Shown: positions 3,149-43,884, counted from the stretch's first letter. The stretch is 64,000 nucleotides of DNA from Deltaproteobacteria bacterium (GCA_040218735.1 JAVJQW010000041.1:352001-416000); one strand, 5' to 3'. Numbers and translations: made by a program. Notes: generated by a model from the sequence alone, not told the origin.

Positions 3149-3233
3149 CGCCCGAGTGAGGTGAATCCCGGCGGCAGGTAGGTCAGATTTGCGTTTACAC
3201 CCCTGCGACCGGCTGCCAGGATGCGCGCCGAAA

Positions 3234-3611: not shown

Positions 3612-3644
3612 ACCTGCGCGCGTTCCTGCTAACCTAGCGCTCGA

Positions 3645-28400: not shown

Positions 28401-30361
28401 TCGGGTGGCGTCGGTGGCTCGCGGTCTTGGTCGTCGCGGTGTTCGCGCTCGACGTCGCGCCGCCGCTCGTCGATGCGCAGATCGCGTGGGCGCAGGGGGA
28501 CGACGACAAACCCAAGAAGAAGAAGCGCCGAAAGCGTCGTCGCCGAAAGAAGCGGCGCAAGAAGACGGAAGAGAAGCCCGCCGCCGAGCCGGTGAAGGAC
28601 TCGGGGACGCCGACCGCCGAGGAGCTGCGCATCGAAGCGGAGAAGCGTCGCCTCGAGATCGAGAAGAGGCGCGTCGAGGCCGCGAAGAAGAAGCGCGAGG
28701 CCGAGGGTCGCAAGACGTCGGCGCTGCGAACCGGTGCGCCCTCACGGTGGTCGAACCGCGGCGCGATGGAGCCGATCGTGTCGGAGGTGCCCGTGACGGC
28801 GCCGCTGCCCGCGCGCAACGTGCCGAAGCCCGTCGGCGTCGAGACGCCGGGCCAGAAGTTGTTCGAGGGGGACGAGGTGCTGTCGGCGCGGCTGTCGCTC
28901 TCGGGGACGCAGCTCACGACGCGGGGGCAGGACCAGGTGTTCGACGGCGCGAACCTCGTGCCGGATCGCGACCGCGACATTCAGCTCCTGCGGGGGCGCG
29001 CGACGCTCGCGTATCAGCACATCGCGGGGTCCGACTTCGGCGCGCACGTCGATCTCGAGTACCGCCCGTCCTACAACGTGTCGCGGTTCACGGATCAGCG
29101 GGTCAACGAGCTGTACGTGAGCTACGGGCTCACCGATTTCCGGGGCGGGGCGTCGGGGCCGGCCTTCGGTGTGGCGCTCGGCCGCCTCGCGATCCGCGAG
29201 GCGGGGTACGCACAGGCGGACGGCGCGGCGGTGCGGGTGCGGCTCCTCGACGAGCTACACCTCGGCGCGTTCGGCGGCATCACCGGCAACCCGTACGGCT
29301 ACAACTGGCGGCGGCGGTCGAGTGAGTTCGTCAGCGCGGACTGGATCACCGGCGGGCTGTTCTCCGCGGTGCGTGTGGGGCCGTTCGCAGCGAACGTCGC
29401 GGGGGTCGTGACGCTCTCCAACTCCTCCGACGTGCTCGGCGTCGAAAACGGCATCGACCGCATCTACGCTGCGTTGGACTTGAGCTACCTGATCGCGCCG
29501 GACCTCAACGTCTTCGCGCAGGGCAAGCTCGACGTGCTCCCGTCCGGGCAGCTGATCCAGAACCTCGAGCTCACCGGCACTTGGACGCCGAGCACGCGTG
29601 CGTCGGTGTCCGCGTCGGTTGGTCGGTTCAGCACGGTCGTGTACGAGCAGTCGGCGCGTTACACGTACGAGGTCGACCCGGCGGGCAACCTGTTCCTCCC
29701 GAACGATCCCCAGGTCGGGAACCGGCAGATCGTCGACGAGGACGGCAACCCGATCCTCCCGTTCGACGCGGCGCTCTTCACGACGGTCTACAACCAGGCG
29801 CGGGTGCGCGGCGGGTATCGCGTGCTGCGCGAGGTGGAGATCTACGGTTCGTTGAATGCGCTGCTGCGTGACTTCACCTCCACGAACGACGCCCTCGCGG
29901 AGCTCGGCATCGACGCGCAGGTGCCGGGGAGCTCGCTGCGGCTCCTCCCCGCGGCCGGCGCGCGTTACCGCAACCCGGACATCGTGGACCTCAACCTGGA
30001 GCTCACGGGGGTGCTCGACGATCGCTCGAACACCGACGCGATCGTCGCTGCGGGCATCGGTCGCGACCTGTTCGGCCTCTACCTGGGCGCGGACGTGCGG
30101 CGGTACCTGGGCGCGATCGCCGGGACGGACGCCGGCGTGAACCTCGCGTACACGCTGCCGCGCGACTGGCTCCCGGGTGCGTTCATCCTCCGGGGCACGG
30201 TGCGGTACTTCCAGGAGAACGTCCTGCTCATCCGTCCGGACCTCGACCCGGACGGTAACGAGATCGAGAACGACGACGGGCAGAACCGCACCATCCAGGG
30301 GACGGAGTTCACCAACCAACAGACGGTGTTCCTCTTCGCGGGCGCCGAGTGGCGACTCTGA
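28397..30361 (+). CDS. Probable outer-membrane beta-barrel (porin-like) protein
   Basis: GTGA overlap with the cytochrome stop; signal peptide; K/R-rich N-terminal region; alternating beta-strand patterns (FGAHVDLEY, YAALDLSY, AGVNLAY); C-terminal FLFAGAEWRL beta-signal-like strand. Confidence 0.75.
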   Translation: MIGWRRWLAVLVVAVFALDVAPPLVDAQIAWAQGDDDKPKKKKRRKRRRRKKRRKKTEEKPAAEPVKDSGTPTAEELRIEAEKRRLEIEKRRVEAAKKKREAEGRKTSALRTGAPSRWSNRGAMEPIVSEVPVTAPLPARNVPKPVGVETPGQKLFEGDEVLSARLSLSGTQLTTRGQDQVFDGANLVPDRDRDIQLLRGRATLAYQHIAGSDFGAHVDLEYRPSYNVSRFTDQRVNELYVSYGLTDFRGGASGPAFGVALGRLAIREAGYAQADGAAVRVRLLDELHLGAFGGITGNPYGYNWRRRSSEFVSADWITGGLFSAVRVGPFAANVAGVVTLSNSSDVLGVENGIDRIYAALDLSYLIAPDLNVFAQGKLDVLPSGQLIQNLELTGTWTPSTRASVSASVGRFSTVVYEQSARYTYEVDPAGNLFLPNDPQVGNRQIVDEDGNPILPFDAALFTTVYNQARVRGGYRVLREVEIYGSLNALLRDFTSTNDALAELGIDAQVPGSSLRLLPAAGARYRNPDIVDLNLELTGVLDDRSNTDAIVAAGIGRDLFGLYLGADVRRYLGAIAGTDAGVNLAYTLPRDWLPGAFILRGTVRYFQENVLLIRPDLDPDGNEIENDDGQNRTIQGTEFTNQQTVFLFAGAEWRL

Positions 30362-30938: not shown

Positions 30939-31004
30939 GAACGCGGGGAGGCGAGCGCTTGCCGCTTGCCTCCCATAGGACTCGATGTCAGGCATGGCCG
31001 CAAC

Positions 31005-31838
31005 ATGCCTGACATTCAGCTGACCCCGGAACAGATCGAGCTGGGCGTGACGTACGCGACGCGCGTCGTCGGCGTCCTCGTCCTCCTCTTCATCGCGAAC
31101 ATCGTCGCGGGTTGGGTTCGTCGCCTCGTCGCGGCCTCCCTCGAGAAGGCCAAGTTCGATGCGACGCTCACGAAGTTCTTCTCGAACTTCGCGCGCTACG
31201 CGGTCCTCATCATGGCGGTCCTCGCCTGCCTCGGTGTATTCGGCATCGAGACCACGAGCTTCGCGGCCGTCATCGGTGCCGCCGGCTTGGCGGTGGGCCT
31301 CGCGTTCCAGGGCACGCTCTCGAACTTCTCCTCGGGTGTCATGTTGCTCGCGTTCCGCCCGTTCAAGGTCGGGGACGTGGTGACGGCCGCGGGTACGACC
31401 GGCAAGGTCGACTCGATCGAGCTGTTCACGACGCGGTTCATCACGCCGGACAACCGGCTGATCATCGTCCCGAACAGCTCCGTGTTCGGCGGGACCATCG
31501 AGAACGTCACGCACTTCGACACGCGGCGCGTGAACGTCGAGGTCGGCACGGACTACGGCGCGGACCTGCAGAAAACGCGCGAGGTCCTCGAGAAGGTCGC
31601 GAACACGGTCGAGGGTCGCATCGACGACCCGGCCTCGCAGGTCTACCTCCTTCAGCTCGGCGGCTCCTCGATCGACTGGACGGTCCGCGTCTGGTGCAAG
31701 ACCGAGGACTTCTGGGGCGTGAAGGAGCGCCTGACGCGCGACATCAAGGACGCGCTCGACGCCGCGGGCATCGGCATCCCGTTCCCGCAGCAGGATGTGC
31801 ACTTCGACGCCGACGTCATCGAAGCGCTCAAGAAGTAA
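31005..31838 (+). CDS. mscS: Small-conductance mechanosensitive channel
   Basis: GAAGLAVGLAFQGTLSNFSSG, RPFKVGD, IIVPNS, GIGIPFPQ. Confidence 0.93.
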   Translation: MPDIQLTPEQIELGVTYATRVVGVLVLLFIANIVAGWVRRLVAASLEKAKFDATLTKFFSNFARYAVLIMAVLACLGVFGIETTSFAAVIGAAGLAVGLAFQGTLSNFSSGVMLLAFRPFKVGDVVTAAGTTGKVDSIELFTTRFITPDNRLIIVPNSSVFGGTIENVTHFDTRRVNVEVGTDYGADLQKTREVLEKVANTVEGRIDDPASQVYLLQLGGSSIDWTVRVWCKTEDFWGVKERLTRDIKDALDAAGIGIPFPQQDVHFDADVIEALKK

Positions 31839-31875: not shown

Positions 31876-32409
31876 TCACCCGAGCAGGCTCTTCAGCCGC
31901 AGCTCCATCTGACCGCCCGCGGGCCCCATCCGCGCCCCGGGCCTCGCCACCACACGCACCGGCGCGGTGCTCGGCAGCTTCACCACCTTCGATGCGAGCG
32001 GCGCGACGCCGTTTTCGAGGGCGATCGTCGCGTCGAGCTCGGCGCGCGCGAGCGCCGCCGCGTGGGCGGAGCGGCGGTCGAGCTCTCCCGCGATACGGCC
32101 GGCTTCCTCGCGCGCGGCCTCCGCCGTGTTCGCGATCTCGCGGTCCTGCGCGTCGAGGATCTGGCGCGTCTTCGTCGCCGTCTTTCGCCGCTCGGTGGTC
32201 GCCGAGACTCGGCGGTTCGTGAGGTCGGCGACGAGCTCCAGATCGAGGCTGGGCGCCGGTGCGGCGTCCCACTGGACCTTGGTGGTCCCCTCCTGGATCC
32301 GCGAGAACGCATCGTCGAAGCGGCGGGGCGCTTCGTCGGGCTTCGCGGGGGCGGCCTTCGTCACGGTGGGCCGGGGCAGGGTGGCGGTGTTGGTTCGTTT
32401 GACGTCCAT
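31876..32409 (-). CDS. Hypothetical coiled-coil protein
   Basis: AGGAG RBS and a sigma54-type promoter upstream; ends at the hairpin. Confidence 0.7.
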   Translation of the reverse strand: MDVKRTNTATLPRPTVTKAAPAKPDEAPRRFDDAFSRIQEGTTKVQWDAAPAPSLDLELVADLTNRRVSATTERRKTATKTRQILDAQDREIANTAEAAREEAGRIAGELDRRSAHAAALARAELDATIALENGVAPLASKVVKLPSTAPVRVVARPGARMGPAGGQMELRLKSLLG

Positions 32410-32551: not shown

Positions 32552-33259
32552 TCACGGCGAGAGGCGGGTCGCGCGGAGGTTGCCGTTGATGCGGCACACG
32601 CCGCCGGTGGTCGTGTTCGCGAGCGTGACCTGGACGAAGTCGACGTCGATGCGCCCCGCGGACGGGACGTACTCGCGGACCACGAGCGTGCCGCCGATCG
32701 GATCCGGCGCGTTCCCCGTGATGACGTCGGAGTCCGTCGAGAGGTTGGTCCAGGTCGTGGGGAGGATGACGAGGTTCACGACCTGGCCGGTCTCGATGCG
32801 GTGCTGCGAGGAGAGCACCATCGTCTGCGCGCCGTTCAGGTCGAACTGCAGGCTGCTCGTGAGGTTGCTCTGTCGCACGGAGCCGACGGCGATCGAGCCG
32901 TTGTAGCTCACCACGATCTCCCCCGAGAAGTCGGCGGCGCACCCGTCGAAGGTGAGGCCGACCGTCGCAGCCGGCGGTCCGGCGTCTCGGAAGCCCGCGT
33001 CGTGAAAGCCGGCGTCATGAAAGCCGGCGTCGTGAAAGCCGGCGTCGCGGATCCCCGCGTCGAGGGCGCCCGCGTCGGGGCGAGGGCCCGCGTCGCGGTT
33101 CGGGTCGAACGGTCCGGCGTCGCGCGCGGCGGCGTCGGTCGCGCCCGCATCACGGTTCGGTCGGAACACACCGTTGTTGCCACCACCCGCGCCGATGTCG
33201 CGGCGGGAGCCGTCGCAGGCGAGCGCGAGCAGCGGGACGAGGAGCAGCGCGGAGCGCAC
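32552..33259 (-). CDS. Lipoprotein with DAG-repeat linker and C-terminal beta domain
   Basis: Lipobox LLVPLLALAC after GTG 33259; about ten DAG motifs; Cys pair bracketing the C-terminal domain. Confidence 0.75.
   Translation of the reverse strand: MRSALLLVPLLALACDGSRRDIGAGGGNNGVFRPNRDAGATDAAARDAGPFDPNRDAGPRPDAGALDAGIRDAGFHDAGFHDAGFHDAGFRDAGPPAATVGLTFDGCAADFSGEIVVSYNGSIAVGSVRQSNLTSSLQFDLNGAQTMVLSSQHRIETGQVVNLVILPTTWTNLSTDSDVITGNAPDPIGGTLVVREYVPSAGRIDVDFVQVTLANTTTGGVCRINGNLRATRLSP
32989..33057 (-). repeat. 15-bp tandem repeat encoding (DAGFH)n
   Basis: GAAAGCCGGCGTC(G/A)T repeated on the + strand. Confidence 0.85.
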
Positions 33260-33332
33260 GCCCGTTCTACGCCGCTCGCGTTCGTATCTCCCCGCGGCCC
33301 AAGACGTGTCCGTGGGCGCATCGCTCGAGCGC

Positions 33333-34649
33333 TCAGCAGTCGGTCGAAGGCGCCGGTGACATCTCACCGCCGAGCGCGCAGCGGTGGGCGTTGATGCGAA
33401 TCCGGCCGACGCCTCCTCCGCCCCCTCCTCCCGGGCGATCGCCTCCGGAGCCGCCCGCACCGCTTCGGCCGTCCTCACCCGCCAGCGCTTCGACGAGCCC
33501 CGTCGCACCGTCGCCGCCCGTAGCGCCAGGCCCCGCCGAACCGCCGTTCGCGACGGACGTGGCGGCTGCGCCGTCGTCCCCGTGTTCACCGTCGTCGTCG
33601 TCGTCCTCTCCACCGGCCTGACCGCCGCCGGCTCCGTTGGCGAAGAGTCCACCCTCGACGGTCACGACGTCGGCTTCGAGGAGGAGCGCGCCGCCGGAGC
33701 CGCCGCCGCCTCCGGCCGCGCGCCGGTCGCCGCCCCGGCCCCCCTCGCCGAACGCATCGACGTGACCGCGGACCAGGATCGATCCGCTCGCCGAGATCTC
33801 GAGCGCACCTCCGCCGCGCCCGCCCGGTGCGTTGCCGTCGCCGCCCGCGCAGCCCGTGAGGAGCGGGACGAGCTCGGGCGTACCGTTCGCCGAGGCACCA
33901 TCGCCGCCGCCTCTGTCATCCGCGTCACCGCCCGGCGCGCCATCGGTGCCGAAGCCTCCGCCTCCACCGCCCCCGTCGTTGCGTCCGTTCGTTCCGGGGC
34001 AGCTCCGTGTGGCGTGCGCGACCGTGACTTCGCCGTCGATCAGGACGTTGCCGTCGATGATCACGAGGAGCGGTCTGCTGCCGCGCACGTCGAGGCGACC
34101 GGCGGCGGTGACTTCGAAGCGGCGGGCGGTCAGCAGCACGAGCTCTCCATCCGCGGTGCTCAGGACGTGAAGGTCGGGCGGAGGTCCGCACCATGCGTCG
34201 GCCTGCGCGGTGTCCGTGTCGACGAACGCCTCGCAGTCCACGTGGAGCGCGTCGTGGATCACCACGTCGCTGGGCTCATAGTTAGAGCTGAACGGAGGCG
34301 TGAAGCCGGTCATCGGCGCACCGCCGTCCGTCGCGGCGGTGCCGCCATCGCGAGGGGGGGACGCGTCGACGGCACCGCCGTCCAGGGTTCCGGAATCGAG
34401 GGACACGTTGCCATCCGTCGTCGAACCGGCGCCCCCGTCGCGGACGCGCGGTGGCATCAGCGGTAGCGACGGGCGCGGCGCGTAGTCACACGCAGCGAGC
34501 ACGACAAACGACGAAGCAGCCCAGGTCATCGCAACCCATGTTGCGCGTGAGCGGCGGGAGGACGTCCCCCTGGCGAACGCCGAACTCGCGGTCGATGGGC
34601 CTCGGGCGAGGACCGGGAGACCGAGGATCGAGGCGATTCGTGCGCTCAT
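33333..34649 (-). CDS. Gly-rich lipoprotein (GGGGG-repeat domain), DGG linker
   Basis: Lipobox-like FVVLAAC; GGGGGGFG..G..GG, GGGGGSGG.LLLEA, GGGGGGVGRIRIN. Start is 34649 (next to the promoter motif) or 34529. Confidence 0.75.
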   Translation of the reverse strand: MSARIASILGLPVLARGPSTASSAFARGTSSRRSRATWVAMTWAASSFVVLAACDYAPRPSLPLMPPRVRDGGAGSTTDGNVSLDSGTLDGGAVDASPPRDGGTAATDGGAPMTGFTPPFSSNYEPSDVVIHDALHVDCEAFVDTDTAQADAWCGPPPDLHVLSTADGELVLLTARRFEVTAAGRLDVRGSRPLLVIIDGNVLIDGEVTVAHATRSCPGTNGRNDGGGGGGGFGTDGAPGGDADDRGGGDGASANGTPELVPLLTGCAGGDGNAPGGRGGGALEISASGSILVRGHVDAFGEGGRGGDRRAAGGGGGSGGALLLEADVVTVEGGLFANGAGGGQAGGEDDDDDGEHGDDGAAATSVANGGSAGPGATGGDGATGLVEALAGEDGRSGAGGSGGDRPGGGGGGGVGRIRINAHRCALGGEMSPAPSTDC

Positions 34650-34657
34650 GGTGGTCC

Positions 34658-34688
34658 GTACGAAGGACCGCGGCCGCGGAGCGATTCG
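34658..34688 (-). promoter_or_regulatory. Putative ECF promoter P1: CGAATCGCTCC-N15-CGTAC
   Basis: One of four similar motifs in this locus; 8 nt upstream of ATG 34649. Confidence 0.7.
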
Positions 34689-34699
34689 ATCTTCGTTCG

Positions 34700-36172
34700 T
34701 CAGTCGAGCAGCACGTAGCTCACGACGGAGCCGATCAAGAGCCCACCGCCGACGGCGAACAACGCGTTGGCGGTGCGCGCGTCACGGCGTCCGTCGTTCG
34801 CGATCGCCTCTGCGCCGGCGGCATCGCCGATGTAACCCGCGAGGTTGCGCTCCGCGTTGTTGGCGCGGACCCCGAACACGGCGCCGACGATCCCCGCGGC
34901 GGTCGCCGCGCCGGCGAGCCCCAGCGCCACCACGCGCGGCGTCGTAAAGAAGGGTGCTTCCACGATCGGTCGCGACGTCGTGACCGCGGGCGGCGGGTTG
35001 GCTTTGAAGCCCTCGAAGAAGGCCTGACCGAACGGGATCGCAAACAGGTCGTTGCGGAAGCTGATCTCCTCCGCGCCCCGTCGCTCGAGCTGCGTCGGTT
35101 GCGACGGCAGGTTCGACGCATTCACGCGAGCGACGGCGTCGAGCGGGATGACCCGCTCGCTGTCATCGGTGCGCAGGAAGTAGACGCTCTGGGGGACGAG
35201 CGTCATCGTCACGGGTCCGTCCACGCTCATGTTGAAATCGGCGAAGCGAACGCCGCGTCCGTCCTCGAGGAAGTAGCGGCCTGCGAGCGACGACGGCACG
35301 AACACCGACGGGGCGTCCGAAGCGCGTTCGCGTTCGAACAGCGGCTCGGCGATTCGAAGGCGGGGCGCAGCGACGAACGGTTCGAGCTTCGCACGCACGT
35401 CGCGGATTCGGCCGTTCGCCGCGTAGAGGAATGCGCGCACTTCTTCGTAGGTGACGCGACCGTCGCCATCGACGTCGGCCGCGCCTGCGAGCGCGGATCG
35501 CACCTCGTGGCTGAAGATCCCGGCTGCGAAGCGCCCCCACTCGTGGACGTCGGAGGCGTTCGATGTCGACAACAGGACGCCGGTGTTCGGGTAGCGGTCG
35601 AGATCTTCACGGTCCAAGAAGTCGTCGAGAGCGCGATTGATCGCCGCGTCCCCGTCCCCGCGTTTGGCGACGAGGAGGTAGGCGTTGCACGCGTCGATCA
35701 CCACGTGGTTCACGGTTGCCGGAGACTTCGAGATGACCTCCTGGAAGAGGTCACTCCGCGAAAATCGTGCGTCGAAGAGGTGCATCGTCCCTTCGCCGTC
35801 GTCGTCGACGCTGCCGTGCCCGACGTACACGAAGTAGAACGCAGTCCGACGCCCCTCGGCCTTCGCGGATTCGATCGCCTCGAACGTGTCGTGGAGCGCG
35901 TCGAGGAGCCCAGCCCGGGTGGGGACCTCGGCGACGGCGGACGTCGCGGGATGGCGTCGTTGCGTCGAGGCGTCGAGGACGGAGAGCACGCGGACCTGCT
36001 TCGCGAATAGCGCAAGCAGCTCGTGGTAGCGCGCGCCGTCGTCGTCCGCGAACTCGAGGTCGTCGAGTCCGCCGTCGAGGCTCTTGTTGTTCGCGACGAT
36101 GACCGCGAACGACTCCGTCTCGGGCGGCGGGGCACCCGCGAGCGCGACGGCGAGGGTGAGCGTGGCGATCAC
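34700..36172 (-). CDS. Exported caspase-family (C14-like) cysteine protease with C-terminal membrane segments
   Basis: Signal peptide MIATLTLAVALAG; L.FADDD, YVGHG (His) and IDACNA (Cys) dyad, GIFSH...L.GAAD.DGDG.VT..E; two hydrophobic segments at the C-terminus. Confidence 0.85.
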   Translation of the reverse strand: MIATLTLAVALAGAPPPETESFAVIVANNKSLDGGLDDLEFADDDGARYHELLALFAKQVRVLSVLDASTQRRHPATSAVAEVPTRAGLLDALHDTFEAIESAKAEGRRTAFYFVYVGHGSVDDDGEGTMHLFDARFSRSDLFQEVISKSPATVNHVVIDACNAYLLVAKRGDGDAAINRALDDFLDREDLDRYPNTGVLLSTSNASDVHEWGRFAAGIFSHEVRSALAGAADVDGDGRVTYEEVRAFLYAANGRIRDVRAKLEPFVAAPRLRIAEPLFERERASDAPSVFVPSSLAGRYFLEDGRGVRFADFNMSVDGPVTMTLVPQSVYFLRTDDSERVIPLDAVARVNASNLPSQPTQLERRGAEEISFRNDLFAIPFGQAFFEGFKANPPPAVTTSRPIVEAPFFTTPRVVALGLAGAATAAGIVGAVFGVRANNAERNLAGYIGDAAGAEAIANDGRRDARTANALFAVGGGLLIGSVVSYVLLD

Positions 36173-36909
36173 TTCGCGACCACCTGACCTTCGACGACGC
36201 GGACGCGGACGTCGTCATCCGAGGGCTCCGAGCCCCACCGGTGTTTCGCGGTGACCTCGGAGCTGGCGCCGAACACCGCCACGAAGCGCACCGGCCCCGT
36301 CGGCCAGGCGCCGACGTCGAGCCGCGACGAGAGCCGTACCTCGACCGCGTCGAGCTCGACGGGTAGCGGCCCGATCTCCGCGAGGGGGCGCCCGGCGTCG
36401 TCGAGGACGCCGAACTTCATCAAGCGCGCGTCACGACCCGTCGAGTACACGATCTGCAGGATGTCACCCTCGGCGATCGCGGACGAGGCCGCGTCTGCGA
36501 CCTGAACCTTGTCGTCCTGCTCCACCCGGAGCCGAAGGACGCGGATCCCGTACTTCGCGTCGAGGGTGACGTTGTCACCGCGCTGGTTCATCCGGTCCTC
36601 GGAGGGTTGCACGACGAAGAAGACACTCCCGGCCGCAGCGAGCGCGGCGGCGAATGCCCACCCGAAGCGCCGCGAGGCGCGCGGCGGGCTGGGCGGAGCG
36701 AGGCGAGCCGCGACGCGATCGAAGGAGGCGGGGGCGAGGTCCCCGTCGGCGACGGCGTAGAGCTGCTGCTCGGCCTTGGCGTGTCGTTCGAAGATACGTT
36801 CACAATCCGCGCACTGCTCGAGGTGCGCGTAGACCTCGTTCGACTCCGACTCCGAGAGTCGCCCCTCGAAGAGGCGCGTGATCATATCGCCGACGTGTTG
36901 CCCGCTCAT
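36169..36909 (-). CDS. Zinc-binding (zf-HC2/ZAS) transmembrane anti-sigma factor
   Basis: HLEQCADC (HxxxCxxC), TM FGWAFAAALAAAGSVFFVV, extracytoplasmic beta domain; 4-nt overlap with the caspase gene. Confidence 0.85.
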   Translation of the reverse strand: MSGQHVGDMITRLFEGRLSESESNEVYAHLEQCADCERIFERHAKAEQQLYAVADGDLAPASFDRVAARLAPPSPPRASRRFGWAFAAALAAAGSVFFVVQPSEDRMNQRGDNVTLDAKYGIRVLRLRVEQDDKVQVADAASSAIAEGDILQIVYSTGRDARLMKFGVLDDAGRPLAEIGPLPVELDAVEVRLSSRLDVGAWPTGPVRFVAVFGASSEVTAKHRWGSEPSDDDVRVRVVEGQVVAK

Positions 36910-36919
36910 CCGCTCCTCC

Positions 36920-37609
36920 TCACAGGACCCCGACGGAGCGGAGCCAGCCCGCGCCCGTATTTCGGTAGCCGGTCAGATAGCCGTTCTTCTTGAGCATCCG
37001 GAAGAAGTTCGTCCGGATGCGGCGCTCCGATGTCTTGATCTTCGACTCACTCAGGCCGGTGCGTTCCGCGATCTCCTTGTGCTGCAGACCCGCGAGGAAC
37101 CGCAGCTCGTACACCTCGCGCTCGCGCGCGTCGAGCCCGTCGACGAAGCGACCGACCAGCGCTTCGAGCTCGCGGTCGGCGGCTGCGTCCTCGGCGTCGG
37201 CGGGGCGAGCGGGAGCGATCGGCTGCGAGAAGTCGACGTCGTGGGGGGCGTCGTCGAGCAGGTCGTAGTCGACCAGCGCGCGCTCCTTCCTCCGAAAGTC
37301 ATCGATGACGAGGTTCTTCGCGATGGTGGCGATGTAGCGTTCGTACGGCGTCAGCCCGTCGTAGCCAGAGCGCGCGCGGTCCGAGAACGCGCGCGCGAAG
37401 ACATCGTGGAGGCGGTCCTCGAGGTCGAAGGTGGAGGACGCGCCGCGGAACCGGCAGGTCCGCCCGCCGGACTGGAACGTAAACCCGTGCCGGAGGACCT
37501 GCGCGACGCGGGGGGCGTAGCAGGTGAATACCGCCGAGAGCGCGTCTCGGTCGCCGCGCCGGAAGCCGTCGAGCAGCTTGCGATCTTCTTCGAGCGGAGG
37601 AATTTCCAT
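36920..37609 (-). CDS. ECF sigma-70 factor
   Basis: GDRDAL...Y, EDRLHDVF, YIATIAKNLVIDDFRR (region 2), REREVYELRFLAGLQHKEIAERTGLSESKIK (region 4). Confidence 0.93.
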   Translation of the reverse strand: MEIPPLEEDRKLLDGFRRGDRDALSAVFTCYAPRVAQVLRHGFTFQSGGRTCRFRGASSTFDLEDRLHDVFARAFSDRARSGYDGLTPYERYIATIAKNLVIDDFRRKERALVDYDLLDDAPHDVDFSQPIAPARPADAEDAAADRELEALVGRFVDGLDAREREVYELRFLAGLQHKEIAERTGLSESKIKTSERRIRTNFFRMLKKNGYLTGYRNTGAGWLRSVGVL

Positions 37610-37616
37610 GTTCGTT

Positions 37617-37643
37617 TCGCTTTGCGGCCGGCGTCGTCCGTAC
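37617..37643 (+). promoter_or_regulatory. Putative ECF promoter P2: TCGCTTT-N15-CGTAC
   Basis: Upstream of the lipoprotein ATG 37669; same spacing as P1 and P3. Confidence 0.6.
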
Positions 37644-37654
37644 CCTAGTGTGCC

Positions 37655-37681
37655 GTACGGACGAACCGATGCTGGGAGCGA
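37655..37681 (-). promoter_or_regulatory. Putative autoregulatory ECF promoter P3: TCGCTCC-N15-CGTAC
   Basis: Minus strand, upstream of the sigma/anti-sigma/caspase operon. Confidence 0.7.
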
Positions 37682-38478
37682 AAAAATCTGCTTGGACCCT
37701 CGCGGTCGTCCTCGGGAGCCTGACCACGGGTTGTTTCCCCGACCTCACCCCCGATCGAGGGAGTCTGACGGTCGGGCTCTTGGGGGTCGACACCGGCACG
37801 GACACGGTTCGCGTCACGGTGACCGCGGGTGCGGAGCGCCTGGTGGTCGAGGAGGCGCTCACGCCCGCCGCTTCGGTCCGCGTCGAGGTCGTCCCGGTGG
37901 GACCGATCGGCGTCCTCGCGGAGACGCTGCGGCAGGGCACCCTGCTTCAGTCCAAGGGCGTCAACACCGACGTACAGATGGGAGAGAACGACATCGGCAT
38001 CGACTTCGGTTCCGCCGGTCCCAACCCGCCGGACGAGGTACGTTCCGCGCCGCAGGCGGTCGTCGTGCGGCTCGAGGACGAGGACATCGTCGGGGGCCGC
38101 CTGCAGGGGGCAGAGCGCATCGAGCGTGATCCGTTCCTCGCGTTCCTCTCGGCGGCGCGTGCGTCGCTGGGCGGGGCAGTCCAGGTCGTTGGCGTCGTCG
38201 AGGCGACCGCGTCTACCGGCGACGACACGTTCGACGATGTCTTCGATGGACCGTTCGACCTGGAGATCGCGCCCGAGGGGGGCGGGGGGATCGTCGTCGG
38301 GACCTTCGCGGCGTCGGGGGCGCAGAGCCAGCTCATCGCCAACGACGCGGACCTCGCGGGTCTCGCGACGTCGTTCGAAGCGGGGCGGTTCGACGTGCGG
38401 CTCGACGGCCCGACGTCGGCGTCGCAGGTGGACCTCGAGGTCTCCGTCGAGGTTGTGTTCGCGGCCACGCTGCGCTGA
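37669..38478 (+). CDS. Lipoprotein, unknown function
   Basis: Lipobox VVLGSLTTGC; acidic, beta-rich. Confidence 0.75.
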   Translation: MLGAKKSAWTLAVVLGSLTTGCFPDLTPDRGSLTVGLLGVDTGTDTVRVTVTAGAERLVVEEALTPAASVRVEVVPVGPIGVLAETLRQGTLLQSKGVNTDVQMGENDIGIDFGSAGPNPPDEVRSAPQAVVVRLEDEDIVGGRLQGAERIERDPFLAFLSAARASLGGAVQVVGVVEATASTGDDTFDDVFDGPFDLEIAPEGGGGIVVGTFAASGAQSQLIANDADLAGLATSFEAGRFDVRLDGPTSASQVDLEVSVEVVFAATLR

Positions 38479-38489
38479 ATTCTTCACTT

Positions 38490-38519
38490 CGAATCGCTCC
38501 ACGCGCGCTCCGCTCGTAC
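38490..38519 (+). promoter_or_regulatory. Putative ECF promoter P4: CGAATCGCTCC-N14-CGTAC
   Basis: 11-bp upstream element identical to P1; 9 nt upstream of ATG 38529. Confidence 0.7.
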
Positions 38520-38528
38520 GGGACGAGC

Positions 38529-39455
38529 ATGAAACGACGTAGCTCTCTTCACCTCTTCACGCTCGGTCTCCTCGTCGCTTGCGGCGGCGCAACCACGAAC
38601 GGAACCTCGCTCTCGACGCACGATCTCGAAGGGGGGCCCTTCGACTCGGCGCCCGAGGTGCAGGACCGCGCATCGGCCGAGGCGCGCGCGGTCGCGCTGT
38701 TCGGTGGCGACGTCATCAGCTCCAAGCTCGACGTCGAGCGTGGCCTCTCGGTCTTCGAGATCAAGTTGCTGCTTCCGTCCTCGGCGGTGATCGAGGTCTC
38801 CATCGAGGAGTCGACCGGACACCTCGTCCAGGTCGAACACGAGTCCGGCCCGCTCACCGACGACTTGCCGCTCGGCGATGGCTTCCTGAACCTGGCAGAG
38901 GCGCTCGCGAAGGCGACCGGGGATGTCGTCGACTACGAGCTCGAGCTGGACGACGGGCTTCGCTGGGTCTGGGAGCTGGAGCTCGCGGATGGCACGAGCG
39001 TGAAGGTCGACGCGCAGACCGGAGAGGTCTTCGACGGCGTCGGCGATGATTCGTGGGACGACGATGGCTTCGACGACGGACAGGCCGCGACCCCGACCGA
39101 CGCGATTCGCGACGCCGCGCTCGCGATCGTCGACGGCGAAGTCGTGAAGTCGGAGCGCGAGTTCGAGCATGGCATGAGCGCGTGGAAGCTCACGATCCGC
39201 ACGGCGTCGGGCGCCTCGGTCGAGGTGTACCTGCTCGCCGACGACGCGAGCCTCCTTCGGGTGAAGGACGACGAGGGGCCGTTCGACTACGCCGTCACGC
39301 CGGGCCGCGGTTGGCTGACGCTCGACGAGGCGGTCGAACGCGCGGGTCGAAGCCTCGACGTGCTCTCGAAGTTCCGCCTCGATCGCAGCGGTCAGGCGTT
39401 TGTGTACGAGCTGGATTTCGGAGACGAAGACGTGGACGTGAACGCCGTCCGATGA
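38529..39455 (+). CDS. PepSY-repeat lipoprotein (about four PepSY-like units)
   Basis: Lipobox GLLVAC; repeated A...A...G.V...EL....WELEL....V.VDA.TGEV units. Confidence 0.8.
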   Translation: MKRRSSLHLFTLGLLVACGGATTNGTSLSTHDLEGGPFDSAPEVQDRASAEARAVALFGGDVISSKLDVERGLSVFEIKLLLPSSAVIEVSIEESTGHLVQVEHESGPLTDDLPLGDGFLNLAEALAKATGDVVDYELELDDGLRWVWELELADGTSVKVDAQTGEVFDGVGDDSWDDDGFDDGQAATPTDAIRDAALAIVDGEVVKSEREFEHGMSAWKLTIRTASGASVEVYLLADDASLLRVKDDEGPFDYAVTPGRGWLTLDEAVERAGRSLDVLSKFRLDRSGQAFVYELDFGDEDVDVNAVR

Positions 39456-39518: not shown

Positions 39519-40709
39519 TTAGTAGCGGGCCGTGACCGAGAACGACAGGCGGGTCTCGTCACGGTGGAAGAAGAAGGTGTTCACGATGCCGTTGCGGACC
39601 ACGTTGCCTCCCTGCTCCCAGGCGATGCCCGCCGAGAGGAACGGCAGGGGCACCCAGGTCAGGTAGAAGTCGTAGCCGTACGCCGGCCGCACGAACACCG
39701 CGTCACTGCGGTCGGACTCGAACGAGTCCCGCGCCGGGTAGTTCACGGTCTCGGAGCCGTTGATGTCGGCGCCGAGCGTCAACGTCCCGAAGTCCCCGAG
39801 CGAGAACAGGTACTCGAGCGCGAGCTGACCGACGAAGACGAACCGCGGGAGGGTGGCTCCCTGCTGTCCGTTCTGCTCGGCGAACTCGTGCCCGCGCCAC
39901 TGCACGAGACCGGCCGCTGCGACGTACAGCTGGTCGATCACGTTCGTTCGGGCGACGGTCAGACCTTCGAGCCCCAGGTAGAAGCTCTGGATCTGCGCCT
40001 GACGTGAAGTCGGCAGGTACACCATGCCGCGGTGGATGAAGAAGATGTTCCGCTTGATCCCCGCGACCTCCACGTCCACCGGGTTGAACATCATCGCCCC
40101 CAGGTTGAGGTTGCCGAGCTGGAAACCACTCTCCTGCACGTCCGGGTCGAACCCGTCGACCGTGTACGTGCCGGCCGGGAGCCCCGACGGCAACTGACCG
40201 CCCTGCGCCACGAACCGCTGCTGCAAGTTCATGCGCGCGAGGAGCTGCCACCCCTTGGCGAGCTTGAAGCCCGCCGTGAGGGCGTAGTTCATCGAGCGGT
40301 CCCCAGCCGGATCCTCGTCGTTGATGACGGGGGTCCGGAACTGGAGCGACGCAGCCACGAAGAACGGTCGTTTGTTGCCGCCCGCGATCGCCACGTTCTG
40401 GGCGCCGAGCTGAGCCGCAACCTTCTTCGCGCTCTCCTTGCTGTTGTCGTCCCCGGCGGCGACGGCCGATGTCACGGCCGCGCCTTCACCTTCTTCCTTG
40501 TCGTCTTCCGCCTTGGCCGAAGTGGCCTCCGCGTCCGCGCTGCTGGCGGCGGTCTCCGAGGTCGAAACCTCGGAGGTCGCGCCGCCTTCCGCGGACTCTT
40601 CTGCGTGGGCCACTTCGGCTGGCTGTGCATCGTCGGCGCGCGCAGACGTCCCCATCACGAGGACCCCCGCACACACCGACGCGTAGATGAGCCAGCGAAG
40701 TTTCATCAT
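39519..40709 (-). CDS. Probable outer-membrane beta-barrel protein
   Basis: Signal peptide (ARA-D), acidic disordered N-terminus, amphipathic strands, C-terminal LSFSVTARY with terminal aromatic. Confidence 0.7.
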   Translation of the reverse strand: MMKLRWLIYASVCAGVLVMGTSARADDAQPAEVAHAEESAEGGATSEVSTSETAASSADAEATSAKAEDDKEEGEGAAVTSAVAAGDDNSKESAKKVAAQLGAQNVAIAGGNKRPFFVAASLQFRTPVINDEDPAGDRSMNYALTAGFKLAKGWQLLARMNLQQRFVAQGGQLPSGLPAGTYTVDGFDPDVQESGFQLGNLNLGAMMFNPVDVEVAGIKRNIFFIHRGMVYLPTSRQAQIQSFYLGLEGLTVARTNVIDQLYVAAAGLVQWRGHEFAEQNGQQGATLPRFVFVGQLALEYLFSLGDFGTLTLGADINGSETVNYPARDSFESDRSDAVFVRPAYGYDFYLTWVPLPFLSAGIAWEQGGNVVRNGIVNTFFFHRDETRLSFSVTARY

Positions 40710-43700
40710 CAGAACCCGACGAAGTTGTTGAAGTACTCGTAGTACGCCAGGAGGATCTTCAACCCGAAGTTGTCGAGCGTCTCGCTCGCACCCGCGTTCA
40801 GGTCGTCGTTGTAGTCCCGGATGTACTGGAAGCTCACCGGGCTACGCGACTTGCCCGCCGTGAGGTGCCACCCCTGATCCGCCAGGTACGTGTACGTGTA
40901 CTCCTCGCCGTCGTGCACGAAGATCTGCTGCGTGTTGTCCGGCCCCGTCGCGCGGTCGACGATGTCGTCCCCGTACTCGGCCTGCAGCTCCTCGAGCGTC
41001 TCGAAGCGACGAATCGCGATGCGCTCCTTCAGCTCCACGCTCCCGACCAGGTTCGAGTTCGTCACCGACGAGAACAGGCCGATCGCGTAGTAACGGAACC
41101 ACGGGAACGTGTCGTAGGAGGCGCCGAGCATGTTGTCGAGGACCCGCTGCGACAGCGCCGCGTTCCGCGTGCCGAACGGCGCGTCGTACATCGCGACGTA
41201 CGTGAAGACGTCCGGGTTGTAGTTGTAGACCGCCTGCAGATCCATGAACGCAAACGTCGTGAAGAGTTTGTCCACGATGATGCCGATGCGCAGGATGTCG
41301 CCGTAGAAGGGGTCGAACTCCGTCTGGTAGTTCCGGTACGCCGCCGACTGGTTGATGACCGCGTCGTAGAACGCCATCGTCATGCCGATCGCCGCCTGGA
41401 TGTCGATGTAGAAGTCCATCGAGATCTCGTCGTACTCCGGGTCCGTGAGGACCGGGTCGCCGTTGACCTGATCGAGCTTCTTCAGCGTGCCCTGCACGCC
41501 GCCGCCGCCCCAGTCGAACAGGGCGAGGTACCACATGCGAAGCAGCGGGAAGACCGAGTTGTAGACGCTGTAGATGTAGCGGTTCGTATCCCAGAACGTG
41601 CGGTACGCGCGGCGGTTACGAATGCTGTAGAGCCAGTCGTAGCGCTCGATCGAGTTCAGCACGATCTGCGAGGGCGTCACGCCGAGGTCGTGCGCCTGGC
41701 ACAGCGGCGAACGCATCCGGTGCTCGTCGGTGCAGTACAGGAAGTCCTCTTCCATCATCTGCTCGCGCACCTCGTTCGTGCCGTAGATCCACTTGAGCGC
41801 GGCCTCGTCGTACTGACCCCAGCTACGGCCGGTGCCCGCCTCCTCGTAGGAGACGACGTAGTCCATCACCGACGCCGACAGCTCGTCCTCGCGCATGTGC
41901 TTCTTGTCGACCGAGCCGTAGAAGTTGTGACGCAGGCTGAGGTTGTGGCCGAGCTCGTGGATCGCCACGTTGAAGACCACGTCCTCGATGATGCGCTCCG
42001 AGTAGACCTCGTCCGACTCGAACTTCCCGTTCACGCAGCGACGCGCGCCGGTCGCGATCGCGGAGATCGCGTCGTTGGCGTCGAACACGTAGATGTTCTT
42101 CTTGCTGTGGAGGTACTCCTGGTCGGCCTCGAGCCGGTCGTGGTTCTTCCGCCACTCGCGGAAGTCGTCCATGAAGCCGAGCTGCGCTTCGATGCCGTCA
42201 CGCGAGTGCAGCGCGAGGCCCTGGAAGGGATCCTCGTTCAGCATGATGTTGGTCATCGCCTCGTTGAACTCACGCTCCGTCGCGAGGCGGTCGGTGAGGT
42301 TCGCGACCGGGCTGCGACCCTTCGGCAGGTAGACGTAGGGGTTCCAGGCCGGCTCCGCGTAGCGAATCTCACCGAGCGTGCGGTGGTAGTCGCTCAGGAA
42401 CTCTTCGCGCGCGGGCTCCGGCAGGAAGCCGTCCGTCGGCTGGCCGTTCTCGAGGTCCGGCTCCGCGAGCTCCATCGTGCGGCGCATCTCGCGGAAGATC
42501 TGCGTCTGCAGACGACCGGAGTTGTCGGCCGGGACCGCGGTCTGACCCGCTTCGCAGTCGACCTGCTCCCACGCGAGGTCCGCCGGCTTGCCGACGGCGC
42601 CGTTCGTCTCCAGGTAGTCCTGGATGAGGAAGCGGTAGTAGTCCATGCCCACGTTGTAGAGGTTCAGATTCGCGCTGATGATCTCACCCGTGCGCGGGTC
42701 CGAGGACGACGGCCCGTAACCGAGCAGCCCCTTCGTGGTGTCGATGTCCTGGTGCCACGCGACGAAGCTGAAGCGCGCGTCGCCGAAGTGACGCTCCATC
42801 GGCTCGCCGTCCGGTCCGGGCGCGTTCCACTCCTGGAAGTCGAAGCGCAGCGACGCGCCCGCCTCTTCGAGGATGCGGTTCGTGTCGGCCTTGATCTCCT
42901 GGAACATCGGCTTGAACCGCTCCGGGAAGCCCTCGATGAAGTAGAACACCACCGGATCGGTGCGGTTCGGGTTCCAGCGGTGCAGGAGCGCCTTCGCGGA
43001 GAGCAGACCCGTCTCCTCGTCGCGGAACACGTTGAAGCGCTTGAACGCGCCGTACTTCTTGTTGACCGGCGCCTTCTCCGCGATCTCCTCCATCGGGAAG
43101 TCCGGCGACGGGCCGGGGCGGAAGAAGCTCAGGCGGTAACGCACCGACGCGGTGCCGACGTCCGACGCGAGCGACACGAGGTCGTAGCAGCCGCCGAACC
43201 AGGTCAGGACATTCAGGTCGTACGTCACCTCGATGACGAACGACATGTACTGGTCGTCCGGATCCCACTCGAACGAGTCGGGCACCATGTGCGTCGAGAT
43301 CGTCCGCGCGCAGTCCTGCAGGAAGTCCCCGTAGAACCAAGCGATGTTGGTGATCGGGTCCATGTTGGTCCGCTCGAAGTCGACCGCGAAGTTCTGGCGC
43401 ATCTGCCAGGGCTCCTCGGTGTTCTCCTCGAGGAAGTTCGTTCGCTCGCCGTCGAGGCTCTCGCGGAGCTTGATGTCCACGTGCCGCCCGGTGAACTCGA
43501 ACATCACGCGCTCGTTGCTCGTCGCGAGGTCGTCGTTCGGGTCGCCGACGTCGTCGCTCTGCAGCTTCTGGCCGTCGACGACCTGAAGCGCGTTCTCGAC
43601 GAAGCGGAACTTCACGTACCGCATGTCCGACTCGAAGCCGGGGAACGTGTAGTCACCGACCACGTTCGGCGAGGACGCCGAGACGATCGTCGACTTGAAG

Positions 43701-43870: not shown

Positions 43871-43884
43871 CGCTTCGGTCCTCC

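What the first reader, a model, noticed from the sequence alone, without database searches (positions are those of the whole stretch)
32552..39455. Self-contained ECF sigma / zinc anti-sigma / exported caspase signalling module with its own lipoprotein regulon
Seen: a tightly packed operon of ECF sigma (36920-37609), TM anti-sigma with HxxxCxxC, and a caspase-family protease with intact His/Cys dyad, signal peptide and C-terminal membrane segments. It is surrounded by four lipoprotein genes (Gly-rich, DAG-repeat, unknown, PepSY-repeat). Established: TM anti-sigmas are typically destroyed by an extracytoplasmic site-1 protease followed by an RseP-like site-2 protease, and PepSY domains act as protease propeptides/inhibitors. 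Inference: the caspase-like enzyme lies on the same side of the membrane as the anti-sigma's outer domain and could be a dedicated site-1 protease or sensor. That would be a caspase-gated envelope-signalling circuit with surface lipoprotein outputs. Sigma/anti-sigma/caspase neighbourhoods may recur in myxobacteria, but I know of no mechanistic description.
Basis: partly seen in the sequence, partly recalled or inferred. Interest (0 to 1): 0.85.

Follow-up and report, generated by a model that had tools for sequence, protein, structure and literature searches.

The report
Sigma, anti-sigma and membrane-tethered caspase module
A myxobacterial three-gene switch couples a stress sigma factor and its membrane inhibitor to an exported caspase-like protease that probably cuts the inhibitor, which would give a bacterial caspase a defined, testable target.

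Summary
Window 34700-37609 (- strand) encodes an ECF sigma, a zinc-finger single-pass anti-sigma and a 490-aa caspase-fold protein. The protein has an invariant His/Cys dyad, a signal-like N-terminus and a C-terminal helical membrane hairpin. Four lipoprotein genes flank the operon.

The triad is not a local accident. All 16 caspase paralogues in this 11.6 Mb genome have an ECF sigma just upstream. So do 70 of 73 related loci from other Myxococcota with enough upstream DNA.

Both proteins carry a conserved [R/K]-G in a disordered linker. In the anti-sigma it lies 9-31 residues outside the membrane. The fold resembles Arg/Lys-specific para- and metacaspases.

A shared promoter-like motif (TCGCTYY-N13/14-YCGTAC) precedes the sigma operon and three lipoprotein transcription units. 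It occurs 4 times here against 0.08 expected, and it recurs in orthologous loci.

My best reading (0.5) is that the caspase is the site-1 protease or sensor of the anti-sigma. No cleavage is shown, and the complex prediction gave no verdict.

Sigma-metacaspase operons in Myxococcus were noted in print in 2012, without a mechanism. DdvA is a fused analogue. This scan has found similar cassettes before on other DNA. I class this as a new variant of a known kind.

The parts
36920..37609 (-). ECF sigma factor, 229 aa
   Evidence: TIGR02937 scores 67.6 bits (cut-off 42.9). PF08281, PF04545 and PF07638 are over their cut-offs.
36169..36909 (-). Single-pass anti-sigma, 246 aa. It has an N-terminal zf-HC2 anti-sigma domain, a transmembrane helix at about 84-100, a disordered linker and a periplasmic beta-sandwich at 121-244.
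   Evidence: PF13490 scores 30.1 bits. Hydropathy gives the helix. The AF2 model has pLDDT 84.6, with residues 104-109 and 111-116 below 50.
36577..36582 (-). Codons of R110-G111, the candidate site-1 cleavage site, 10 residues after the transmembrane helix
   Evidence: R/K at this column in 33 of 33 aligned anti-sigmas and in 87 of 87 modules. It lies in the disordered linker. Cleavage is inferred.
34700..36172 (-). Exported caspase-fold (C14-like) protease, 490 aa. It has a signal-like N-terminus, a caspase domain at 19-268, a beta-sandwich at 277-360 and a helical membrane hairpin at 411-488.
   Evidence: AF2 pLDDT 90.2. Foldseek matches MALT1 and metacaspases at E 2e-7. 37 of 57 relatives match PF00656.
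35816..35818 (-). Codon of catalytic His119
   Evidence: Invariant in 57 of 57. Coordinate checked.
35687..35695 (-). Codons of D160-A161-C162, holding the catalytic Cys and the acidic residue two positions before it
   Evidence: D160 and C162 are invariant in 57 of 57. Coordinates checked.
35441..35482 (-). EF-hand-like loop AADVDGDGRVTYEE (residues 231-244)
   Evidence: Weak EF-hand matches. The profile of the family matches calcium-binding proteins at E 3e-7.
35075..35080 (-). Codons of R365-G366, the candidate self-processing site between the beta-sandwich and the membrane-proximal helices
   Evidence: [R/K]-G in 57 of 57. The block 361-370 has mean pLDDT 54.
37655..37681 (-). Promoter-like motif TCGCTCC-N14-TCCGTAC, 45 nt before the sigma ATG
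   Evidence: A similar motif lies before the sigma gene in 8 of 10 orthologous loci.
37617..37643 (+). Divergent promoter-like motif TCGCTTT-N14-TCCGTAC, before the lipoprotein gene
   Evidence: A divergent partner motif occurs in 4 of 10 orthologous loci.
37648..38478 (+). Lipoprotein of unknown family (likely start ATG 37669; ...LGSLTTGC)
   Evidence: Weak homologues lie divergent from sigma in 5 of 9 orthologous loci.
38494..38519 (+). Promoter-like motif TCGCTCC-N13-TCGTAC, ending 9 nt before the PepSY ATG
38529..39455 (+). PepSY-repeat lipoprotein, 308 aa
   Evidence: PF03413 scores 56.6 bits. Homologues follow the caspase gene in L028 and L030, each behind a copy of the motif.
34658..34684 (-). 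Promoter-like motif TCGCTCC-N14-TTCGTAC, between the caspase stop and the Gly-rich gene
33333..34649 (-). Gly-rich lipoprotein candidate, 438 aa (lipobox VLAAC at residues 50-54)
   Evidence: No family match.
32552..33259 (-). DAG-repeat lipoprotein (likely GTG start at 33259; MRSALLLVPLLALAC). It is probably co-transcribed with the Gly-rich gene.
   Evidence: No family match.

Best explanation
This is a self-regulated ECF sigma/anti-sigma switch whose operon also encodes its own periplasmic protease.

Proposed sequence of events:
1. The anti-sigma holds the sigma in the cytoplasm with its zinc-finger domain.
2. Outside the membrane the anti-sigma carries a disordered linker of about 20 residues with an invariant Arg-Gly (R110-G111), followed by an Ig-like beta-sandwich.
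3. The caspase-fold protein is exported and tethered to the inner membrane by a C-terminal helical hairpin. It resembles Arg/Lys-specific para- and metacaspases.
4. On an unknown envelope signal it cuts the anti-sigma after R110. The signal may be calcium acting through the conserved EF-hand-like loop, or a ligand of one of the beta-sandwiches.
5. A general site-2 protease of the M50 family then removes the short stub that is left.
6. The freed sigma transcribes from four local TCGCTYY-N13/14-YCGTAC promoters. These serve its own operon and three lipoprotein units: the unknown lipoprotein, PepSY, and Gly-rich plus DAG-repeat.
7. The protease's own [R/K]-G (R365-G366), in a disordered linker before the membrane anchor, may be a self-processing site.

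Shown: gene content, fold, conserved residues, co-conservation, the motifs.
Inferred: export, specificity, both cleavages, the signal, the promoter function.
For: (1) Linkage in the window's genome.
- Of the 17 matches to the caspase protein, 16 include the caspase domain.
- All 16 have a TIGR02937 sigma on the same strand upstream (read).
- The gap from sigma domain to caspase domain is 762-896 nt in 15 of 16.
- The genome holds 115 such sigma matches in 11.6 Mb.

(2) Linkage elsewhere. 70 of 73 loci with at least 2 kb upstream have the sigma within 3.5 kb, with a median gap of 999 nt. An anti-sigma homologue lies between sigma and caspase in 87 of 88 modules.

(3) Coupling. Anti-sigma and caspase share a GTGA overlap. 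A 4-nt overlap is common in relatives.

(4) Protease competence. H119, D160 and C162 are invariant in 57 of 57. The model has pLDDT 90.2. The best structural matches are MALT1, Yca1, TbMCA2 and AtMC9.

(5) Candidate site.
- The anti-sigma has R/K at one column in 87 of 87.
- In the 33-row alignment it lies 9-31 residues after the transmembrane helix and is followed by G in 26, S in 6 and M in 1.
- It sits in a stretch with pLDDT below 50.
- The protease has [R/K]-G in 57 of 57, in a low-confidence linker.

(6) M50 site-2 protease homologues exist elsewhere in the genome.

(7) Regulon.
- The window has 4 motif hits against 0.08 expected.
- These are 4 of the 38 hits in the whole genome.
- Each lies 4-45 nt before a gene start.
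- The motif recurs before the sigma gene in 8 of 10 orthologous loci, and before the PepSY homologues of L028 and L030.

(8) Precedent. DdvA carries a periplasmic CHAT domain and was proposed to cut itself before RseP acts (PMC11506125, passages read).
Against: - No cleavage, binding or expression data exist.
- The window's own protein misses the Pfam C14 model at E <= 0.01.
- Arg/Lys specificity rests on fold neighbours and on a recalled D-x-C rule, not on a residue-level comparison made here.
- Export rests on a short, uncharged hydrophobic N-terminus. The K+R counts around the hairpin do not discriminate between topologies.
- Co-transcription fits a protease that is merely an output equally well.
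- The R-versus-K match between partner proteins (76 of 83) vanishes under a phylogenetic control. There were 6 independent pairs and the median p was 0.5.
- The promoter pattern was derived from the window's own sites. Only the orthologue scan is independent of that.
- One module in the window's genome (C60) has no anti-sigma.
Confidence: 0.5

Rival explanations
1. The caspase-fold protein is an output of the switch, not its trigger. The sigma/anti-sigma pair senses something else and simply co-expresses an envelope protease. That protease processes other substrates, for example the co-regulated lipoproteins.
For: The caspase gene lies in the sigma's own autoregulated operon. Variable exported proteins follow the caspase gene in paralogous modules: RCC1, Kelch, FG-GAP and Ig-type. 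The complex prediction gave no support for binding, which is not evidence either way.
Against: - The 1:1:1 linkage holds in 16 of 16 paralogues and 70 of 73 loci.
- Anti-sigma and caspase are translationally coupled.
- An invariant basic residue sits in the anti-sigma's disordered juxtamembrane linker, in 87 of 87. This is unexplained if the anti-sigma is not a substrate.
Confidence: 0.25
2. The caspase-fold protein is a non-cleaving partner of the anti-sigma: a co-sensor or protector in the manner of RseB. Another protease makes the site-1 cut.
For: The two genes are tightly coupled. Both proteins have periplasmic beta-sandwich domains that could pair.
Against: The His/Cys dyad and D160 are invariant in 57 of 57. 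That argues for retained catalysis. Pseudo-proteases usually lose these residues.
Confidence: 0.15
3. The module is a programmed-cell-death or anti-invader system, like the cytoplasmic caspase conflict systems (EACC1/EACC2) or the developmental lysis suggested for Myxococcus metacaspases.
For: There is a weak NCBIfam hit to the EACC1-associated caspase type, E 1e-4. Caspase-ECF neighbourhoods occur in conflict systems (PMC8195603, passages). A death role was suggested in PMC3501461 (passages).
Against: The score is far below the cut-off (21.9 against 140 bits). No NTPase, effector or EACC domains were seen in the module. The protein has a signal-like N-terminus and a membrane hairpin. A PADLOC scan was not run.
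Confidence: 0.05

Closest known systems
Sigma-metacaspase operons of Myxococcus xanthus DK1622 and other Deltaproteobacteria (Asplund-Samuelsson et al. 2012, PMC3501461; passages read)
   Same: A metacaspase gene shares a predicted operon with a sigma-70-family gene. The paper reports this for 4 of the 5 M. xanthus metacaspases, and for Anaeromyxobacter, Haliangium, Sorangium, Ralstonia and Fibrobacter. The present family occurs in 147 of 201 sampled genomes of the phylum.
   Different: The passages I read list only the co-occurrence. They name no anti-sigma, topology, cleavage motif or regulon, and they discuss a cell-death role. I did not check that the paper's genes are the same subfamily as this one.
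DdvS/DdvA of Myxococcus xanthus (PMC6061681, PMC11506125; passages read)
   Same: An ECF sigma is held by a zinc-binding single-pass anti-sigma, with a caspase-superfamily His/Cys domain in the periplasm. Caspase-like cleavage followed by RseP was proposed there.
   Different: In DdvA the protease is a TPR-CHAT domain fused to the anti-sigma, about 900 residues, and is proposed to act in trans within a dimer. Here it is a separate C14-like protein with its own membrane hairpin and no TPR. The anti-sigma's outer part is a small beta-sandwich.
RseA/DegS/RseP and RsiW/PrsW/RasP regulated intramembrane proteolysis (recalled textbook knowledge)
   Same: A single-pass anti-sigma would be cut first outside the membrane, close to the helix, and then by an M50 protease. 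M50 homologues are present in the genome.
   Different: The site-1 enzyme would be a clan CD cysteine protease encoded in the operon itself and duplicated together with it, rather than a shared serine or metalloprotease.
Craspase: Cas7-11 with the TPR-CHAT protease Csx29, Csx30 and an ECF-type sigma (PMC10028731, search listing and start of abstract only; also described in passages of PMC11506125)
   Same: A caspase-superfamily protease is linked to control of an ECF-type sigma through cleavage of an inhibitor-like protein.
   Different: Craspase is cytoplasmic, RNA-guided and CRISPR-associated. None of these features is present here.
EACC2-caspase systems with a neighbouring ECF sigma (Kaur et al. 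2021, PMC8195603; passages read)
   Same: Caspase and ECF sigma genes are neighbours.
   Different: Those are multidomain cytoplasmic conflict proteins with a DUF1822 TPR partner. No such domains were found here.

Membership tests
Peptidase C14 / clan CD caspase fold | Caspase-hemoglobinase alpha/beta fold | tested here: met
   The AF2 model has pLDDT 90.2. Foldseek matches MALT1 at E 2e-7 with probability 1.0, and also metacaspases Yca1, TbMCA2 and AtMC9 and GSU0716.
Peptidase C14 / clan CD caspase fold | Catalytic His and Cys in order | tested here: met
   H119 (GHG) and C162 (DAC) are invariant in 57 of 57.
Peptidase C14 / clan CD caspase fold | Match to Pfam PF00656 over its cut-off | tested here: inconclusive
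   The window's protein has no hit at E <= 0.01. 37 of its 57 aligned relatives match, best E 7.8e-15.
Peptidase C14 / clan CD caspase fold | Proteolytic activity and P1 specificity | not testable with these tools
   Arg/Lys preference is inferred from fold neighbours and from invariant D160 two residues before the Cys. The D-x-C rule is recalled.
ECF (group IV) sigma factor | Sigma-2 and sigma-4 regions only, with a match to the ECF model | tested here: met
   TIGR02937 scores 67.6 bits (cut-off 42.9). PF08281 and PF07638 are over their cut-offs. PF04542 is below its cut-off at 18.6 bits. The ECF group number was not assigned.
Class I zinc-binding anti-sigma (ZAS, zf-HC2) | N-terminal H-x3-C-x2-C anti-sigma domain and one transmembrane helix | tested here: met
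   PF13490 scores 30.1 bits (cut-off 22.2). HLEQCADC lies at residues 29-36. The helix lies at about 84-100. Only 11 of 33 relatives match zf-HC2.
Class I zinc-binding anti-sigma (ZAS, zf-HC2) | Binds its sigma | not tested
   Inferred from adjacency and family.
Anti-sigmas inactivated by regulated intramembrane proteolysis | Site-1 cut in the outer part, then an M50 site-2 protease | not testable with these tools
   M50 homologues are present. The candidate site R110-G111 lies in a disordered linker.
DdvA-type anti-sigma | Periplasmic TPR-CHAT fused to the anti-sigma | tested here: not met
   The anti-sigma is 246 aa with a beta-sandwich only. The protease is a separate gene. A CHAT match occurs in 1 of 57 relatives.
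Sigma-metacaspase operon (Asplund-Samuelsson 2012) | Metacaspase and sigma-70-family gene in one operon in a deltaproteobacterium | tested here: met
   The paper's passages were read.
DUF4384 (PF14326) | Match of the anti-sigma outer domain to the Pfam model | tested here: inconclusive
   The window's protein has no hit. 3 of 33 relatives (best E 5e-4) and one paralogue in the window's genome (21.4 bits, cut-off 27) match weakly.
PepSY | Match to PF03413 over its cut-off | tested here: met
   56.6 bits against a cut-off of 24.

The most novel reading that the evidence does not exclude
Caspase-fold proteases are the dedicated site-1 proteases of a large family of ECF anti-sigma factors. They cut at a conserved juxtamembrane [R/K]-G. 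One myxobacterial cell runs about 16 parallel protease/anti-sigma/sigma channels, each with a small local regulon of surface lipoproteins. That would amount to a paralogous caspase-gated sensory array of the cell envelope.
Probability: 0.4. Interest if true: 0.8.

Novelty: new variant of a known kind. Interest (0 to 1): 0.6.

Why it matters
Bacterial caspase homologues are abundant, but almost none has a known substrate or role. This family offers a specific candidate substrate, the anti-sigma encoded next door. It offers a candidate scissile bond, after R110, and a read-out, the four local promoters. Relatives exist in genetically tractable Myxococcus.

If the model holds, roughly one in six ECF sigma factors of this genome would be controlled by a caspase-type protease. 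That is 16 of the 100 over the model's cut-off. It would add a new class of site-1 protease to a textbook pathway, and it would shift bacterial caspases from cell death towards signalling.

Tried and rejected
- Complex prediction of caspase 16-400 with anti-sigma 99-246: no verdict, score 0.08. Nothing follows from it.
- Sequencing runs: no RNA holder listed. I did not lay reads.
- R-versus-K co-variation between anti-sigma and caspase. The raw match was 76 of 83. On a FastTree tree there were only 6 independent pairs and the sign test gave a median p of 0.5. I dropped it as evidence.
- Positive-inside count around the C-terminal hairpin. Mean K+R was 4.58 in the loop of about 33 residues and 1.93 in the 15 residues before it. 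The densities are similar, so the count does not discriminate.
- Sequence searches against solved structures found only EF-hand proteins and marginal metacaspase hits, E 0.2-1. I therefore made no residue-level check of the S1 pocket.
- Search for a conserved gene after the caspase gene. A crude ORF rule found a same-strand ORF in 37 of 85 loci, 23 of them with a lipobox-like Cys. The genes vary, and the rule is too rough for a claim.
- tblastn with the window's neighbours found PepSY in 2 of 80 loci and nothing for the Gly-rich protein, the OMP-like protein or the zincin.
- Upstream regions of the other 15 sigma genes of the window's genome show no common motif by eye.
- ECF classification paper. 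'Caspase' does not occur in the main text or in the stored part of the supplement. That file was cut when stored, so later groups could not be checked.
- Literature searches: 'metacaspase' with 'anti-sigma' (3 papers, none relevant by title or abstract start); 'Myxococcus xanthus' with 'ECF' and 'metacaspase' (0 papers); 'orthocaspase' with 'ECF' (1 paper, the DdvA paper).
- Earlier findings by place, by sequence and by one word set returned nothing.

Full report
**What is there**

The window is 68% G+C, so open frames abound. Third-position G+C picks out the real genes.

Three genes lie on the minus strand:
- An ECF sigma factor at 36920-37609, 229 aa. TIGR02937 scores 67.6 bits against a cut-off of 42.9.
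- An anti-sigma at 36169-36909, 246 aa. PF13490 zf-HC2 scores 30.1 bits. HLEQCADC lies at residues 29-36, and one hydrophobic helix lies at about 84-100.
- A 490-aa protein at 34700-36172.

Sigma and anti-sigma are 10 nt apart. Anti-sigma and the third gene overlap by GTGA.

Four genes with lipoprotein-type N-termini flank the operon:
- an unknown protein at 37648-38478 (+);
- a PepSY protein at 38529-39455 (+);
- a Gly-rich protein at 33333-34649 (-);
- a DAG-repeat protein, probably starting at the GTG at 33259 (-).

**Is the third gene a caspase?**

By itself it matches no Pfam C14 model at E <= 0.01. It has only a weak NCBIfam caspase hit of 21.9 bits against a cut-off of 140. The case rests on its family and its fold:
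- It has 231 relatives at E <= 0.001 in the first protein search. Some are named 'caspase family protein' and come from Myxococcota.
- 37 of 57 aligned members match PF00656.
- H119, D160 and C162 are invariant in all 57.
- The AlphaFold2 model is confident, with pLDDT 90.2 and pTM 0.79.
- The model shows a caspase-type alpha/beta domain (19-268), a beta-sandwich (277-360), a low-confidence linker, and two long helices (411-445 and 451-488).
- Foldseek ranks MALT1 paracaspase first, E 2e-7. MALT1 also pairs a caspase domain with an Ig domain. Metacaspases Yca1, TbMCA2 and AtMC9 follow.

All of these enzymes cut after Arg or Lys. That statement, and the role of an acidic residue two positions before the Cys, are recalled and were not tested here. 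An EF-hand-like loop (residues 231-244) is conserved in the family.

**Topology**

All 57 members begin with a short hydrophobic, signal-like segment and end with two hydrophobic stretches. The simplest reading is this:
- the catalytic domain is exported;
- a helical hairpin anchors it in the inner membrane;
- the tip of the hairpin, about 35 residues, lies in the cytoplasm.

The count of basic residues does not settle the orientation. Export is therefore inferred.

**Co-conservation**

The window lies in an 11.6 Mb genome of 70 contigs. Seventeen places in that genome match the protein, and 16 of them include the caspase domain. The genome holds 115 matches to the ECF model, 100 of them over the cut-off.

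Reading the two tables together, all 16 caspase paralogues have such a sigma on the same strand just upstream. The gap from sigma domain to caspase domain is 762-896 nt in 15 of them and 1752 nt in one. The best canonical C14 gene of the genome (C52:219218, 133 bits) and a weak hit on C17 have no sigma beside them.

Fifteen of the 16 modules have, between sigma and caspase, a single-pass protein of the anti-sigma type. The exception, on contig C60, has an NmrA-like gene and an Rce1/CPBP-type protease gene instead.

Outside this genome, a scan of one genome per species found 215 relatives, of which 80 loci were kept. These are from Myxococcales, Bradymonadales, Polyangia and similar groups.
- 73 of the 80 loci have at least 2 kb upstream.
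- 70 of those 73 have a same-strand ECF sigma within 3.5 kb, with a median gap of 999 nt.
- The three without are L067 (sigma on the other strand), L094 (sigma downstream) and L101 (none).
- A profile of the anti-sigma finds a homologue in 87 of 88 modules. The 88 are 72 loci plus the 16 of the window's genome.

A profile of the caspase family matches 147 of 201 sampled genomes of the phylum at E <= 1e-20, and 121 of the 160 of high quality. That tally includes G000 and one unpublished genome, G195. Only seven candidates per genome were scored.

**A candidate cleavage site**

In an alignment of 33 anti-sigmas I noticed an invariant basic residue shortly after the membrane helix. It is R in 26 and K in 7. 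It is followed by G in 26, S in 6 and M in 1, and it lies 9-31 residues after the helix. Across all modules it is R or K in 87 of 87.

In the window's protein this is R110-G111. The AlphaFold2 model (pLDDT 84.6) puts it in a stretch with pLDDT below 50. That stretch lies between the helix and a well-modelled beta-sandwich at 121-244.

Earlier notes of this scan said that protease and inhibitor share a short motif, so I checked the protease too. It has [R/K]-G at residues 365-366 in 57 of 57, followed by S or A in 50. In 84 of 88 modules the column holds R or K. Two of the four gaps are truncated loci. This motif sits in the low-confidence linker before the membrane-proximal helices, where the block 361-370 has mean pLDDT 54.

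A cut after R110 would leave a stub of about ten residues. That is the kind of substrate M50 site-2 proteases take, from recalled knowledge of RseA and RsiW. M50 homologues exist elsewhere in the genome.

**A test that failed**

Partner proteins tend to share R or K at the two sites, in 76 of 83 modules. On a tree of the caspases only six phylogenetically independent pairs exist, and the sign test gives a median p of 0.5. The apparent co-variation is explained by common descent and is not evidence.

**The regulon**

Upstream of the sigma gene, the PepSY gene and the Gly-rich gene I saw the same sequence, TCGCTCC-N13/14-YCGTAC.
- The strict form occurs 14 times in the whole genome on both strands, and 3 of these lie in this 3.8 kb.
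- A slightly degenerate form, TCGCTYY-N12-15-YCGTAC, occurs 4 times in the 64 kb window against 0.08 expected from shuffles.
- The same form, widened by one base at its last position (YCGTAS), occurs 38 times in the genome.
- The fourth site faces the unknown lipoprotein gene, back to back with the sigma promoter.
- Each of the four lies 4-45 nt before a plausible start codon. Most of the other 34 do not.

The pattern was derived from these very sites, so those counts are partly circular. The independent check is the orthologous loci, scanned with a looser pattern:
- the motif precedes the sigma gene in 8 of 10 close relatives;
- a divergent partner motif is present in 4 of 10;
- a copy follows the caspase stop in 3 of 10;
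- in L028 and L030 that copy precedes a PepSY homologue.

Weak homologues of the unknown lipoprotein lie divergent from sigma in 5 of 9 loci examined. A compact, conserved local regulon is therefore likely. Transcription itself was not observed.

**What is known**

- Asplund-Samuelsson et al. (2012, PMC3501461; passages read) reported that four of the five M. xanthus DK1622 metacaspases lie in operons with sigma-70 factors. They saw the same in Anaeromyxobacter, Haliangium, Sorangium, Ralstonia and Fibrobacter. In the passages I read they named no anti-sigma and no mechanism.
- DdvA of M. xanthus is a zinc-binding anti-sigma with a fused periplasmic TPR-CHAT domain. Caspase-like self-cleavage before RseP action was proposed for it (PMC6061681 and PMC11506125; passages).
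- ECF54 has CHAT proteins nearby (PMC8999054 passage; supplement of PMC7826278).
- EACC2-caspase conflict systems have ECF neighbours (PMC8195603 passages).
- DUF4384 occurs fused to orthocaspases (PMC6426788 and PMC7475262; passages). The anti-sigma outer domain matches DUF4384 only weakly.
- I found no paper that proposes a separate C14 protease as the site-1 protease of an anti-sigma. The library misses most subscription journals, and the ECF supplement was cut when stored.
- This scan has noted similar cassettes on other DNA. Most of those have an outer-membrane barrel anchor. This one has an inner-membrane helical hairpin.

**Verdict**

I file this as a new variant of a known kind. The known kinds are the printed sigma-metacaspase operons and the DdvA idea. 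Its own features are:
- a separate protease tethered by a membrane hairpin;
- a shared [R/K]-G motif;
- sixteen parallel modules in one genome;
- a four-promoter local regulon.

Noticed in passing
window 39519-43894 (-): A 1061-aa DUF4953 Met-zincin (PF16313, E 1.9e-10) is followed directly by a 396-aa protein of no family with a signal-like N-terminus. Both coordinate ranges include position 40709, so the two genes abut. No copy of the promoter motif lies before them.
   Followed up: no
window 30966-31838 (+): An ordinary MscS-type mechanosensitive channel (NF007662, E 4.5e-60).
   Followed up: no
window 28346-30361 (+): A 671-aa protein of no family. It has a hydrophobic N-terminal segment followed by a run of Lys/Arg (KKKKRRKRRRRKKRRKK).
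   Followed up: no
window 31876-32409 (-): A 177-aa ORF with third-position GC of 0.92, just downstream of the DAG-repeat gene. It may belong to the same transcript. It was not scanned against any library.
   Followed up: no
L014 (G000:C60:160811-172196), about 2671-6488 (+): One paralogous module lacks the anti-sigma. It has an NmrA-like NAD-binding gene and an Rce1/CPBP-type membrane protease gene between sigma and caspase.
   Followed up: partly
L012, L013, L014, L015, L018 (paralogous modules of G000): The genes after the caspase gene differ from module to module. They encode large exported repeat proteins: an RCC1 propeller, Kelch/Big, FG-GAP/TIG, Stig1/Big_5 and an ASH Ig-like protein.
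   Followed up: partly
window 36169-36546 (-), anti-sigma residues 121-244: The best, weak structural matches of the outer beta-sandwich are the lipid-binding Ig-like folds RhoGDI, PDE6-delta and NPC2, Foldseek E 1e-3 to 1e-2. This may mean no more than a generic Ig-like fold.
   Followed up: no
window 34649-34658 and 38519-38529: In both the Gly-rich and the PepSY genes the CGTAC element ends 9 nt before the ATG. The transcripts would therefore be leaderless or nearly so.
   Followed up: no
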